From a virus, in the IMG/VR virus record IMGVR_UViG_3300037089_000506: a DNA stretch of 64,000 nt; one strand, written 5' to 3'. The translations under genes were made by a program, and so were the position numbers. This document shows positions 13,775-35,817 of this stretch, piece after piece (positions within the stretch are counted from its first letter, which is position 1; the number at the start of each line of letters is the position of its first letter). The notes beneath the pieces were generated by a model, which searched no databases, was not told the DNA's origin, and saw only the letters and a program-made list of their open reading frames with translations.

Positions 13775-15118
13775 ATTATGAGTAAAAAAAACACAACTAG
13801 AACCACTGTAGGTGGTGATATGATTCAATGCCCCTATTGTCATGCTTATTCTTATCCTCGATTGTATAAGAACCCAAAGACGGATGAAGAGAAGGAGGCT
13901 ATTGTATGTGGCTCCTGTTTAGCTAATTTACGACCCTATATCAATGCTATGATGAAATATGAGGAGGCAATGAAGAAGGAACAGGAGAAGAAACCTACAG
14001 AAGAGAATGCACTTATTATGGACAATGGTGATGGTACTGTTGATGCTTATGTGGATTCAGAAAAAGTAGCAGAGAGGGTATTGACAGAAATGCAAGAAGA
14101 GAGTATGGTTAAGAATGCCCCCGTAGTGGAGCTAAGCTCAAGTGAAGGAAACTAAAATGGTTGAAACTAAGTTGTTACTAGAGGATGAGGAACTGGATTT
14201 ACTGGAGGATATTCTTGATGGATTTTATCTTTCATGCCCCCAGGAGTATTCTCTCACAGAGAAGATGAATCTTCAAGCCAAGCTTGAGAAAAAAGAGGTG
14301 AAGTTGACTAATGAAGAAATCTTCACAGTATGGAAAGCACTCTCTAATGCTTCTCAAGTAGAAATTCAGGAAGATAAGTTTGAGAGTTTGAGGGGTAAGT
14401 TCGAACAGCTCAATATGATGCTGTCATACTAGCACTAATTATTATATCTGTATTTGCTCCCTGTTGAATCAGCTTCATTGCCTTCGACAGGGTTATTTTT
14501 TAGGGGGGTAATATGAGAGCTGAGTGTCCATATTGTCATAAGATTGTAGAGCAGACAATAACAAAACTGGTAAGTCGTTGTACTGAATGTAATAAGGAGT
14601 ATTATAGCCCAGAACAGACTAAAGCTATAACAGCATGGAGAGAATATGGAAAACAATTAGCAAAAAATGCTTGACAGTTTAATCAAACTGTAGTAGGTTA
14701 AGAGTATGAAAACCTGGAAATTACCTGCGGAGTGTAATAAGAATTTGCTGTGTTATAAAGCAGAGCTTTGTGAGCTTTGTAATAAAGCAAAAAAGGCATA
14801 TGAATCTAAGAAGGAGAAAAGAAATAAATCTGTATAGGATTTCACAGACTGTACAAAGCGGGTTTGATACTTATTCTGATGCAATAGTAGCAGCAGATTC
14901 CTCTGAAGATGCTGCTTTGATTCACCCTAATTCTCATTATAGATTTTTTAGAGGATGGCCTATAGCAAATACTTCTGAGTGGGGGGAAGCGCCTGAACGT
15001 GGGTGGGTGGATAATCCTGATCAAGTTAAAGTAGAATTTATTGGTGTGGCTTTACCTACTATAGAAAAGGGAGTCATTTGTGCTTCCTTTCATGCTGGAT
15101 GAAAATATTTTTTAGGTG

Positions 15119-15147
15119 TTGACAAACTGAAAAAGAAGTAGTATAGT
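15119..15147 (+). promoter_or_regulatory. sigma70-type promoter upstream of the large ncRNA
   Basis: TTGACA-17-TATAGT. Confidence 0.75.
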
Positions 15148-15195
15148 GTGAGTATGAGGTTGAGAGCATAAGCCTAACTTCATAAAGTCTTTGAC

Positions 15196-15824
15196 ATACT
15201 AGGGATGGGGAATAAGGATGCAGGAAAAGTCCAGATACGTAGTGTTTGGAACCTAGCTGTAAGGTATGCACCAGTCTTCGACAATGATACAGCCATCCTT
15301 TTTATAGTGGGATTGCAGCCACCCCCAGTGATACTATCCGATACAGTAGGGTAGTGGAGGGGAAATAGCACGTTGAGCCTACGAGTAACGTAAAAGAAAG
15401 GCATTGAATGTGATTAGTCCTAACGAGGTTACGTAGATTCTATAGCAGAGAAGTGGGAAACCCATGGAGTTATAGAGGAGTTCCAGTTAGGACGGTCAGT
15501 GTGAATTAAAGTTCACACTCCGCTAAACCCAGAGGGGTGTCTGTCGGGCAATACAGTTAAAACCTCGTGGTGGGTAGCTTTCGGGCTGGTAAATCATAAG
15601 CCCACCAAATTAGGTGTAATGAATACCTGTAAATCTTATGACTGGTGATTCAAGTCATAAGGGAAAATTCATATGTTCTTCTGAGGCATCATACTCCATA
15701 GATACTTCCAGTCCTATCGTGTATGTAGATGCCAACATGAAGTAATCCCTTAGGGTGGAGCTTAGGCTTTAGGTCAAAAGGGGGAATAGCCATGCTTGTC
15801 AGGTGAATACCCAAACCCTAGTAT
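15196..15824 (+). ncRNA. large (~630 nt) highly structured ncRNA, ROOL/GOLLD-like size class, family unassigned
   Basis: ends pair (ATACTAGGG 15196-204 / CCCTAGTAT 15816-24); more than 10 internal helices, GAAA and UUCG loops, an 8-bp pseudoknot; no credible ORF. Confidence 0.75.
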
Positions 15825-15833
15825 TTCTATTTT

Positions 15834-15909
15834 AGAGGGATAGCTTAAGGTTAGAGCAGGAAATCTATTAAGGTTTCTGTGTTGAAGGTATCGAATCCTT
15901 CTCCCTCTG
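15834..15909 (+). tRNA. atypical tRNA-like gene (Asn-like, loop CTATTAA)
   Basis: AGAGGGA/TCCCTCT acceptor, D arm, G73; irregular anticodon arm and 8-nt T loop. Confidence 0.45.
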
Positions 15910-15941
15910 TACTTTCTGAACCATCAACACACTAATTGTAT

Positions 15942-16661
15942 ATGAAACAGAAATACTACCTTTATCAAATAAAATGTCTAATAAATGGGAAAATTTATGT
16001 GGGGGTGCATAGAACCTATAATCTTGATGATGACTATATGGGTTCAGGTACAAAACTTTTAGGAGACATGACAGTTTTAGGAAAAAAGAATTTTGAGAGA
16101 ACCATTCTAAAGTTCTTTGATTCTGAGGAAGAGATGTATAAAGAAGAAGCCCTTATTGTAAATAAGGTGTTCATACAGAAAGAAGAAACCTATAATATTG
16201 TACCGGGAGGAAGAGGCGGTTCAACTCAGCTTACAGAATTGTCGAGAACAGACCAAGCCCGAAGTAAGAAAAGGGAAACATTAAGAAGAAGAAAGCATCA
16301 GCAAGGTACTAAAAATAGTAGGTATGGAACAATGTGGATTACTAATGGAATAGAAAACAAATCAGTTAGTAGAATTAATGATATTCCTGAAGGCTGGAAA
16401 AAGGGAAGAGCTATATCCTATAATAGAGAATACAGAAGAGGGGAAGCAGCAGTAAATTATGGAACAATGTGGGTTAACAATGGTAAGGAATCTAAACAAA
16501 TAGAAAGTAATAAACCCATACCTGAAGGGTGGAAAAGAGGATTACTAATATCTTTAGAAAAACTTAATTCACAAAAAATGTGGATTACAAATGGTATTGA
16601 AAGTAAATTTGTATATAAAGAATCTCTAATACCTAATAATTGGAGGAGGGGAAGAAAATAA
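15942..16661 (+). mobile_element. freestanding GIY-YIG homing endonuclease
   Basis: YYLYQIKCLINGKIYVGVH...YMGSG; C-terminal MWITNG...IPEGWKKGR repeats. Confidence 0.85.
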
Positions 16662-17270: not shown

Positions 17271-18480
17271 GTTTTATTATAAGGAGTGAATATGGGTATT
17301 ATACCAGAAGGTCAATCAGAACCAATGTCGGAAGACATGGCAAAATCTCTTTTAGGAATTACGATGCTAGAAATGCAGGATAAGAATTTCAAAACTGCTA
17401 CAGAGATTCTATCAGACATGACAGAACGAGCAGAGAATTCTGAGGATATGCAAGCTTTATTTCCTTTTCAGGTGATACAAAATAGAATTGAAATTTTTGG
17501 TTATGATATGAAATTTACTATTCCTGCTTTTCTCTCTTTTGGGGTATTTCCTGATAGAGTAGGAGCAGTGGTAGTTATGCTTATTGATATTCTAGAAACC
17601 CTTGGTGAAGGGAATATAACCTTAAATGATATAGCAGAGAAGTTATATCCCTATGGCTTCTATAATGAAGCAGGGTTAGAAAAGAGAATAGATGAAATTA
17701 AAATTGACAAAAAACTTCCTGCTGAAGAGATGAAATCCAAGTATAATAACTTGTATTGATGGGTAAATAAAAAGCAAAGAAAAAAGTTAGGATATCTATA
17801 GTAATTCTTGACATTCTTTAGATTATATTGTATCTTATTCAAATCTTAATTCTAAGGAGCCTAAAATGGCGCTTGTGTATAGGGTTGAAAATAAAGCACA
17901 TATTGGGCCATATCGGAATGAGTATTACCCTAGTATTATGAAATATGTTTCTAAGCGTCATACTGACAATAACCATCCTTGTCCAATAGAAGATGAAGAT
18001 ATAAATCGACGAATGGATGAAGAAGAGAGATGTGGATTCAAAGATTTGAATCAATTTCGTTCTTGGTTCAATTTGAGGGATAGAAAACTTCTTCATACTA
18101 TGGGGTTTATTCTTACTATTTATGAGGCTAAAGATATTGTTTATGGTAGATATCAAATTTTATTTAATAAAAATACTGCATATAAGATAATGGAATATTC
18201 ACTTTTAACCAGAAAAAGAACTTGACTATTTGACAGGAACATGTTATGTTCCTATTATCACTTGTTGAAGGAGACATGAATGGCGAATGAGGTTAAGAAT
18301 CGCTCGTGCCGAGTGAAGGGAGTAGGAAAGAATTCCGGCAGGTCCATCTCGGCGGAAAATCCTTCGGGGCTTCGTAGGAAGTCTGGTGGGCTAGAGCTTG
18401 CTCCTAAGTCTTTGCGGAGATTAGGCAGAAAGTTCATGACGGACTGTAATCAGGAGGAATTGGCAAAGATTGGATTGTAA

Positions 18481-18660
18481 ATCTATTAGGCAGTGGGCTT
18501 GGAAGTGGCCAGCTTTAATAAGTGGGACAGTAGGCTCTGGTTAGCATCCTGTAACGGGAAAGGGACCAGATGACTGGATATGGGCGCAACCAGCATCGAG
18601 TCGGGGAACGACAACGACTGGGCGCAACTTCCCTTTGGTGTAGTAACATACCTAATAGAT
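18481..18660 (+). ncRNA. unassigned structured RNA (~180 nt)
   Basis: perfect 10-bp terminal helix ATCTATTAGG/CCTAATAGAT, GGAAGT/ACTTCC helix, several internal hairpins. Confidence 0.55.
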
Positions 18661-35303: not shown

Positions 35304-35756
35304 ATGGAGAAAACCTTTAAAGGAAGTACCATGATTTACGGTTTTTTTGGTGAGTATAGCTTTTTAAGTAATTTCCATCTTTGTGAAATTCCTTTTGAAG
35401 GGCTCATTTACCCCTCTACCGAATATGCATTTCAGGCTGCTAAAACTTTAGACATTCAGGAACGAAAGTTTATTAGAACGGCTACTACTTGTGGTAAGGC
35501 TAAACGAGCAGGAATGACAGTAACATTACGTTCTGATTGGGAGGGAATAAAAATAGGTATTATGTATGATGTGAATATGACTAAATATGAAACATATCCT
35601 GAGCTTAAGGAGAAACTTCTAGCTACAGGTGAAGAAGAACTTGTAGAAGGCAATACGTGGGGAGATACCTTCTGGGGACAGGTAGATGGAATTGGCAAGA
35701 ATTATTTAGGTTTAGTTTTAATGCAGATTAGAAAGGAACTAAAAGAGGGCCTATAG
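35304..35756 (+). CDS. NADAR family protein
   Basis: FLSNF, STEYAFQAAK, DWE..K..IM, LVEGN.WGD.FWG, N.LG..LM.IR. Confidence 0.9.
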   Translation: MEKTFKGSTMIYGFFGEYSFLSNFHLCEIPFEGLIYPSTEYAFQAAKTLDIQERKFIRTATTCGKAKRAGMTVTLRSDWEGIKIGIMYDVNMTKYETYPELKEKLLATGEEELVEGNTWGDTFWGQVDGIGKNYLGLVLMQIRKELKEGL

Positions 35757-35817
35757 CTCAGTGGTAAAGCACCGTCCTCTAAACACGGGAACTAGGGTTC
35801 AATTCCCTATAGGCTCA
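35747..35817 (+). tRNA. amber suppressor-type tRNA (CTA)
   Basis: complete cloverleaf, loop CT-CTA-AA, C31:C39 mismatch. Confidence 0.75.

What the first reader, a model, noticed from the sequence alone, without database searches (positions are those of the whole stretch)
15196..15824. ~630 nt ornate ncRNA with paired ends and a pseudoknot
Seen: promoter at 15119; 9-bp terminal helix. Nested helices: AAGGATG/CATCCTT, CCAGATAC/GTGTTTGG, GCTGTA/TACAGC, TCTATAGC/GTTATAGA with a GGGAAACCC loop, AGTGTGAA/TTCACACT, TGGTGGGT/GCCCACCA with a UUCG loop, CTTATGACT/AGTCATAAG, GGCATC/GATGCC. GTCCTAAC (15417-24) pairs with GTTAGGAC (15486-93) across the CTACG..TAAC/GTTACGTAG helix, forming a pseudoknot. 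A tRNA-like gene follows 10 nt downstream. Established: ROOL and GOLLD RNAs are large phage/tRNA-associated RNAs of this size class. I cannot assign the family by eye, so it may be a new one.
Basis: partly seen in the sequence, partly recalled or inferred. Interest (0 to 1): 0.8.

Follow-up and report, generated by a model that had tools for sequence, protein, structure and literature searches.

The report
New large structured phage RNA
A roughly 680-base non-coding RNA gene with an elaborate, evolutionarily maintained fold heads the tRNA gene cluster of an uncultivated ~200-kb phage. It matches no described RNA family, and in size and setting it resembles the cage-forming ROOL and GOLLD RNAs, whose function is still unknown.

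Summary
The flagged stretch is a real, stand-alone structured RNA gene. It lies behind the best sigma-70 promoter of the region (15119-15147), has no conserved ORF under any code tried, and runs directly into a tRNA. The + strand folds far better than shuffles (z -4.9) and than the - strand (z -2.0). I recovered five distinct full-length variants and one internal-deletion variant, all from one clade of syntenic uncultivated phages. They share invariant blocks separated by hypervariable stem-loops and insertions. Eleven base pairs in two tool-made alignments change on both sides while staying paired (0-1 of 500 shuffles reach this). Four further helices covary or are replaced by different helices at the same place. 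The 9-bp terminal helix and the second strand pair of the proposed pseudoknot are specific to the window's own subclade. No Rfam 15 family matches, with ROOL and GOLLD tested directly. It is a new family of the ROOL/GOLLD kind: a large ornate phage RNA at a tRNA island. Its known distribution is narrow, its expression is untested and its function is unknown. The scan had noted this same stretch once before in an overlapping window, and no look-alike on other DNA.

The parts
15119..15147 (+). sigma-70 type promoter (-35 at 15119-15124, -10 at 15142-15147). The transcription start near 15154 is inferred.
   Evidence: 11 of 12 consensus matches, top of the scan. Both hexamers are kept in all five variants.
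15154..15183 (+). leader hairpin H0 (15154-61 with 15176-83)
   Evidence: MFE. Kept in all variants, with A-U to G-C at the outer pair and G-U to G-C inside.
15189..15210 (+). invariant 5' block B1 (15189-96 and 15200-10), the strand that closes the molecule
   Evidence: Invariant in five variants. Its partner is ambiguous: the 3' end at 15816-24, or 15745-50. 15190-95 could also pair with 15773-78.
15214..15300 (+). hypervariable domain closed by helix H1 (15214-20 with 15294-300)
   Evidence: The closing helix is kept with changes on both sides in almost every column. The interior is 23 to 160 nt long and differs between variants.
15305..15401 (+). most conserved core: hairpin H2 with invariant 8-nt loop (15307-22), H3 (15323-26/15359-62), H4 (15332-39/15349-56), H5 (15370-74/15387-91) and a purine-rich junction (15393-401)
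   Evidence: 92% column identity. 97% of cells are paired and 3 pairs change on both sides; 1 of 500 shuffles reaches this. The covariance model R1 hits only family members, at 110-123 bits.
15401..15411 (+). small hairpin H6, the site of large insertions in other variants
   Evidence: About 170 nt of extra folded RNA in L074 and about 45 nt in L068 at this point.
15417..15493 (+). helix H7 (15417-24/15486-93) enclosing H8 (15439-46/15469-76) and H9 (15454-57/15461-64)
   Evidence: The second clade has different helices at the same place, 6 bp for H7.
15498..15519 (+). hairpin H10
   Evidence: 8 bp in the window's clade with one A-U to G-U change. The other clade has a GNRA-capped hairpin instead.
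15528..15556 (+). hairpins H11 (15528-37, absent in G001) and H12 (15541-44/15553-56) with a conserved 8-nt loop
   Evidence: H12 shows U-A to C-G in G001.
15563..15628 (+). invariant block B7, helix H13 (15568-74/15601-07) with variable tip H13b, and hairpin H14 (15612-17/15623-28)
   Evidence: 97-100% of cells paired, with one-sided wobble changes only.
15635..15661 (+). variable hairpin H15
   Evidence: 9 bp in the window, one mismatch in L069, and a different hairpin in L068.
15672..15758 (+). invariant blocks B9 (15672-85) and B10 (15737-58) flanking covarying hairpin H16 (15685-90/15728-33)
   Evidence: H16 has 3 pairs with changes on both sides. B9 and B10 are identical in all five variants.
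15758..15832 (+). 3' domain: H17 (15758-69, window's clade only), invariant block 15772-80, covarying hairpin H18 (15781-84/15809-12), invariant 15813-19, and the 3' tail up to the tRNA
   Evidence: All 4 pairs of H18 change on both sides. In three variants the RNA abuts the tRNA directly.
15834..15909 (+). first tRNA of the island, probably co-transcribed. Its 5' processing would set the RNA's 3' end (inferred).
   Evidence: Rfam tRNA 41.4 bits. No terminator-like site in 14-20 kb. All 19 tRNAs of the record lie downstream on the same strand.

Best explanation
This is the gene of a stand-alone, highly structured non-coding RNA of about 680 nt (about 15154-15832, + strand) from a family that has not been described.

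Shown:
- A near-consensus sigma-70 promoter sits in front of it and is conserved with the RNA.
- There is no conserved reading frame.
- The fold has at least 18 helices. Many are kept by compensatory changes or by replacement with different helices. They are interrupted by invariant single-stranded blocks and by sites that tolerate large insertions.
- The strand is fixed by many G-U pairs.
- It sits at the head of the phage's tRNA island.

Inferred:
- Host RNA polymerase transcribes it early, together with the following tRNA.
- RNase P cutting at the tRNA's 5' end releases its 3' end.
- The invariant blocks at the two ends (15189-15210, 15672-85, 15737-58, 15772-80, 15813-19) lock together into a pseudoknotted closing module.

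Most likely mode of action, by analogy only: like ROOL and GOLLD, it acts as an abundant RNA architecture in its own right. It could be a self-assembling particle or a scaffold for host or phage factors linked to tRNA or translation, rather than a message or a short antisense regulator.

My odds: real conserved structured RNA 0.9; family absent from Rfam 15 0.85; works as a ROOL/GOLLD-like architectural RNA 0.35.
For: - Promoter: conserved.
- Non-coding. The only + strand ATG frame (15205-15354) stops after 6 codons in G001 (sequence).
- Folding: z -4.9 on +, -2.0 on -.
- Five variants with a mosaic of invariant blocks and variable stem-loops.
- Covariation: A2 has 97% paired cells and 3 double changes, 1/500 shuffles. 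A3 has 94.5% paired cells and 8 double changes, 0/500, with slid controls at 35-43%.
- G-U pairs at many kept positions fix the strand.
- No Rfam family matches.
- Setting: it precedes all 19 tRNAs of the record.
- ROOL and GOLLD are likewise phage or prophage RNAs near tRNA islands with unrelated folds (bioRxiv 10.1101/2024.12.08.627333).
Against:
- Only five variants, in two subclades of one phage lineage. The statistics are therefore thin, and the invariant core helices carry no covariation.
- How the ends close is unresolved.
- One metagenome contig carries a copy lacking about 410 nt of the middle, so the RNA may be dispensable, or that contig may be misassembled.
- Two complete, more distant phages that share the neighbouring gene lack the core.
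- The analogy with ROOL and GOLLD rests on size and genomic setting only.
Confidence: 0.6

Rival explanations
1. It is a long structured 5' leader of the tRNA operon that acts in cis. It would guide or time processing of the downstream tRNAs, several of which carry unusual hairpin inserts, or buffer their transcription. It would have no function once cut off.
For: It is directly fused to the first tRNA with 0-9 nt between them, and no terminator follows. The tRNA next to it differs between variants while the RNA stays.
Against: About 650 nt with blocks of up to 26 invariant nt and insertion-tolerant helix tips is far more than known tRNA leaders need. The neighbouring tRNA is swapped without change in the RNA's 3' domain, which argues against specific cis pairing with it.
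Confidence: 0.15
2. It is a trans-acting ribozyme or guide RNA, for example one that takes part in maturing the phage's intron-bearing tRNAs.
For: It has an invariant core with pseudoknot potential. Earlier notes record odd hairpin inserts in the same genome's tRNAs, and I saw one in the tRNA that abuts the RNA in G001.
Against: No likeness to RNase P, group I or II introns or any ribozyme family in Rfam. I found no complementarity that points to a substrate. This is speculation.
Confidence: 0.07
3. It is a DNA-level element, such as a replication origin, packaging site or recombination hot spot, or merely decaying non-coding DNA. The predicted RNA fold would then be incidental.
For: The region is gene-free, and neighbouring modules (tRNA, homing endonuclease) are shuffled between variants.
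Against: The compensatory changes keep Watson-Crick and G-U pairs on the + strand only. The + strand is 40 kcal/mol more stable than the - strand. A conserved promoter is aimed at it. Invariant blocks of up to 26 nt rule out decay.
Confidence: 0.04
4. It is a very divergent member of ROOL or GOLLD that the covariance models fail to recognise.
For: Same size class, same phage and tRNA-island setting.
Against: No hit at E<=10 to either model in the whole 109.5-kb record, and none at E<=1 in four other variants.
Confidence: 0.06

Closest known systems
ROOL RNA (Rfam RF03087)
   Same: About 0.6 kb, many helices and pseudoknots, encoded in phages and prophages often beside tRNA islands, and no known protein partner or function.
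   Different: No sequence or structure match (nothing at E<=10; gathering score 99.1 bits). ROOL is widespread, whereas this RNA is known from one phage clade. Oligomer formation is untested here.
GOLLD RNA (Rfam RF02032)
   Same: Large ornate phage or prophage RNA next to or fused with tRNAs. It has a conserved part plus a variable part that accepts insertions.
   Different: No match at E<=10 (gathering score 150 bits). Here the conserved blocks are spread along the whole molecule rather than concentrated in a 3' half.
Abundant unclassified long non-coding RNAs next to tRNA genes in staphylococcal phage K (PMC9241854)
   Same: [quoted passage not shown]
   Different: No sequence likeness: blastn against 50,697 GenBank phage records found nothing.

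Membership tests
ROOL (RF03087) | Match to the family covariance model at or above 99.1 bits | tested here: not met
   No match at E<=10 in the whole record. Nothing in cmscan of the window or of the region.
GOLLD (RF02032) | Match to the family covariance model at or above 150 bits | tested here: not met
   No match at E<=10 in the whole record. Nothing in four other variants at E<=1.
Any other Rfam 15 family (OLE, RNase P, group I/II introns, tmRNA, 6S, raiA, HEARO and others) | Match to any of 4227 covariance models | tested here: not met
   Within 15150-15832 only chance-level hits with E about 1-6, far below the gathering scores. Only tRNAs in the other variants.
Large ornate phage RNAs at tRNA islands (the kind, not a homology family) | Non-coding transcript unit of more than 500 nt | tested here: met
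   No conserved ORF under three codes. About 680 nt from the inferred start to the tRNA.
Large ornate phage RNAs at tRNA islands (the kind, not a homology family) | Many conserved helices supported by covariation | tested here: met
   11 pairs with changes on both sides in tool alignments, plus H0, H1, H7 and H10. Only 5 sequences.
Large ornate phage RNAs at tRNA islands (the kind, not a homology family) | Encoded by a phage or prophage beside a tRNA island | tested here: met
   IMG/VR virus record. The RNA precedes 19 tRNAs on the same strand.
Large ornate phage RNAs at tRNA islands (the kind, not a homology family) | High expression during infection | not testable with these tools
Large ornate phage RNAs at tRNA islands (the kind, not a homology family) | RNA-only homo-oligomer (nanocage) | not testable with these tools
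   Needs cryo-EM or light scattering of the transcript.

The most novel reading that the evidence does not exclude
This is a third, structurally independent class of giant phage tRNA-island RNA. Like ROOL and GOLLD, it would assemble into an RNA-only multimeric particle, which would make such particles a recurrent invention of tRNA-rich phages rather than two curiosities.
Probability: 0.2. Interest if true: 0.8.

Novelty: new variant of a known kind. Interest (0 to 1): 0.6.

Why it matters
ROOL and GOLLD were recently shown to form RNA-only cages, but nobody knows what they do. Both sit beside phage tRNA islands. A third, unrelated large RNA in the same position would add weight to the idea that the position reflects function. 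It is driven by a strong early promoter, fused to the first tRNA, and keeps a core of invariant blocks. It would give structural biologists an independent molecule to test for self-assembly and for shared partners such as tRNAs, ribosomes or host defence nucleases. It is also practical to study. The conserved core, the insertion-tolerant tips and a natural internal-deletion variant already outline which parts to keep or trim for cryo-EM and probing.

Tried and rejected
Homologue hunting that added nothing beyond one phage clade:
- Exact 21- and 23-nt blocks in viral contigs found only G001.
- A loop-only gapped pattern gave 56 chance hits; none was confirmed by nhmmer.
- Two further gapped patterns gave only G001 plus chance hits.
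- An invariant 18-mer in metagenome contigs gave one true contig and four chance hits.
- A 20-base block in genome contigs gave one chance hit.
- blastn against GenBank phages found nothing.

Neighbour-gene routes:
- The upstream 110-aa protein has no close relative in viral contigs.
- Its distant homologues, and those of the downstream 157-aa protein, lie on contigs without any gene-free gap or RNA.
- One promising 2.9-kb contig had no DNA on file.

Other checks:
- Two complete, more distant phages (200.7 and 355.9 kb) lack the core model.
- Reading the region as protein under TAG=Q or TGA=W is rejected.
- RNAalifold on the raw MAFFT alignment gave a garbled consensus because the variable parts misalign, so I curated the helices by anchor blocks instead.
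- RF01998, cited as GOLLD in some earlier notes of this scan, is group-II-D1D4-1 in this Rfam copy. GOLLD is RF02032.
- Host flanks: the whole record has uniform 32-39% G+C and looks viral throughout. The nearest GenBank phage DnaB is 23% identical. The host stays unknown.
- A possible loop-loop contact (15312-16 with 15547-51) loses its end pair in two variants without compensation, so I dropped it as unsupported (sequences).
- Sample accessions were not found in the paper library.

Full report
WHAT IS THERE

The window is the minus strand of bases 10725-74724 of a 109.5-kb IMG/VR virus record estimated 62% complete. Identical neighbouring genes occur on contigs up to 197.8 kb, so the phage genome is probably near 200 kb. 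It has 32-39% G+C throughout, and all 19 of its tRNA genes lie on one strand.

The flagged stretch lies between a small gene ending at 15102 and a tRNA at 15834-15909. It is preceded by TTGACA-17 nt-TATAGT at 15119-15147, the best promoter-like site in 14-20 kb. No terminator-like site follows. There is no ORF above 74 aa in table 11, and none above 117 aa if TAG or TGA is read through. From the inferred start at about 15154 to 15832, the + strand folds to -212.6 kcal/mol (z -4.9). The reverse complement reaches only -172.9 (z -2.0).

RELATIVES

A DnaB gene 13 kb away led to a second virus record, G001, with 78% protein identity and synteny over 36 kb. It holds a homologue of the RNA. Exact-protein look-ups of flanking genes gave more contigs from JGI, ENA and Logan assemblies.

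There are five distinct full-length versions:
- W, the window, identical in L066 and L067
- L069, the same in L070-L072 and L076
- L074
- L068
- G001

Measured from the first invariant block to the tRNA, they are 645, 695, 769, 652 and 661 nt long. One 991-nt contig (L092) has the 5' 64 nt joined directly to the last 230 nt, so it lacks about 410 nt.

All come from one clade of syntenic phages. Every wider search failed, whether by exact or gapped sequence patterns in three public collections, by blastn in GenBank phages, or through distant homologues of both neighbouring genes. Details are in Tried and rejected. Two complete phages (200.7 and 355.9 kb) that share the downstream gene at 30-35% identity have no match to the core model.

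CONSERVATION PATTERN

W and G001 are about 70% identical overall, but the identity is mosaic. Blocks of 8 to 26 nt are identical in all five. They are 15189-96, 15200-09, 15307-22, 15363-80, 15393-401, 15563-74, 15672-85, 15737-50, 15752-58, 15772-80 and 15813-19.

Between these blocks are stem-loops that differ in sequence and length:
- The domain at 15214-15300 ranges from 41 to about 175 nt.
- L074 carries about 170 extra, self-folding nucleotides at 15401-11, and L068 carries about 45 at the same point.
- One hairpin (15528-37) is missing in G001.
- One hairpin (15758-69) exists only in the window's subclade.

The promoter hexamers and a leader hairpin (15154-83) are conserved too. This pattern of fixed core, free helix tips and indels that ignore codon phase is what large structured RNAs show. 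Coding or decaying DNA does not show it.

STRUCTURE AND COVARIATION

On a MAFFT alignment of 15305-15401 (92% identity), four helices give 97% paired cells. Three pairs change on both sides, and 1 of 500 column shuffles reaches this. Slid controls pair 37-68% of cells.

On 15532-15833, six helices give 94.5% paired cells. Eight pairs (11 cells) change on both sides, 0 of 500 shuffles reach this, and slid controls pair 35-43%. The hairpins at 15685-90/15728-33 and 15781-84/15809-12 change at nearly every position.

I registered four more helices by their distance from invariant blocks and checked them by script:
- The helix closing the variable domain (15214-20/15294-300) reads differently in W, L068 and G001 yet is fully paired in each (7, 9 and 7 bp).
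- 15417-24/15486-93 is replaced in the other subclade by an unrelated 6-bp helix at the same place.
- The hairpin at 15498-519 is replaced there by a GNRA-capped one.
- The leader hairpin changes A-U to G-C.

Many kept pairs are G-U. On the other strand these would be A-C mismatches, so the RNA is read from the + strand, the one the promoter serves. With five sequences in two subclades, these numbers support a fold but are not an R-scape-grade test. The invariant core helices carry no information.

WHAT DOES NOT HOLD

The 9-bp end helix (15196-204/15816-24) is perfect in W and L069, but only 5 of 9 positions pair in L074, L068 and G001.

It also overlaps a hairpin kept in all five.

How the ends close is open. 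Minimum-energy folds use the end helix in the window's subclade. In the other subclade they use 15201-06 with 15745-50, then 15752-56 with 15814-18, and in L068 also 15190-95 with 15773-78. The latter set can form in all five variants and would make a pseudoknotted closing module. All its strands are invariant, so comparison cannot decide.

WHAT IT IS NOT

No Rfam 15 family reaches its threshold anywhere on the RNA. At E<=10 only chance-level snoRNA-type hits appear. Four other variants give only tRNAs at E<=1. ROOL (RF03087) and GOLLD (RF02032), searched directly over the whole record, give nothing at E<=10. A core model built here (R1, 97 positions, 21 pairs) hits every full-length family member at 110-123 bits and nothing else in 306 kb of other phage DNA.

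HOW IT PROBABLY WORKS

Shown: a conserved strong promoter, a conserved multi-helix fold on the + strand, fusion to the first tRNA of the island, and absence of a terminator.

Inferred: host RNA polymerase makes the RNA and the tRNA as one transcript early in infection. RNase P then frees the RNA's 3' end, since in three variants the last base of the RNA touches the first base of the tRNA.

By analogy: ROOL and GOLLD share the size, the ornate fold and the tRNA-island setting. They have unrelated folds, and both form RNA-only cages of unknown purpose. I therefore rate an architectural role as the most likely single reading, at about 0.35. That role could be a self-assembling particle, or a scaffold or decoy for tRNA- or translation-linked factors. 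A cis-acting leader of the tRNA operon follows at 0.15, and a trans-acting ribozyme or guide at 0.07. A DNA-level element is disfavoured by strand-specific pairing.

NOVELTY

This is a new homology family within a known kind. I found no paper describing it. The known range is narrow, one uncultivated phage lineage with no close GenBank relative.

The scan's index holds this same stretch once more from an overlapping window (e1-5831803) and no look-alike on other DNA. It also lists other, unrelated large phage RNAs from other genomes.

Noticed in passing
L092:349-801 (ENA ERZ19037038, 991-nt contig): A copy of the RNA with an internal deletion of about 410 nt. The 5' 64 nt (L069 type) are joined directly to the hairpin equivalent to 15612-28 and everything 3' of it. 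The promoter, 3' domain and tRNA are intact. It is either a natural deletion mutant or an assembly error.
   Followed up: partly
L098:8404-9100 (IMGVR_UViG_3300014208_000002, complete 200.7-kb phage): There is a possible positional counterpart at the equivalent place, upstream of the homologue of the 157-aa gene and of a tRNA island. A TTGACA promoter is followed by a leader hairpin and about 650 nt without an ORF, at higher G+C than the genome. It shares a 5' motif with this RNA (a CUUU.ACA-like element, then UUAGGGA.GGG). It has no other alignable similarity, no R1 hit and no Rfam hit, and its fold z is only -1.7. Distant homology is unproven.
   Followed up: partly
window 15834-15909; G001 and L068 tRNA abutting the RNA: The first tRNA after the RNA has an over-long anticodon loop (ARAGORN calls Asn, anticodon AUU; Rfam shows extra loop bases). 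In G001 and L068 a different tRNA takes this place and carries a long hairpin insert in the anticodon region. This fits the earlier notes on hairpin mini-introns in this genome.
   Followed up: no
window 15936-16661: A GIY-YIG (SegE-like) homing endonuclease gene lies between the first two tRNAs in the window and in L066/L067. It is absent at this place in G001 and L070, so it is a mobile insertion.
   Followed up: partly
window 35747-35817: A tRNA with anticodon CUA (amber suppressor; ARAGORN labels it Pyl). ORFs in the window nevertheless look intact under table 11.
   Followed up: no
window 18230-18258: A second near-consensus promoter (TTGACA-17-TATTAT) lies upstream of another gene-free structured stretch (about 18480-18660) noted by earlier readers. 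This phage seems to carry several promoter-led structured RNAs in its tRNA region.
   Followed up: no
Rfam accession used in earlier notes of this scan: Several earlier notes cite GOLLD as RF01998. In the Rfam 15 copy used here, RF01998 is group-II-D1D4-1 and GOLLD is RF02032, so tests run under RF01998 did not test GOLLD.
   Followed up: yes
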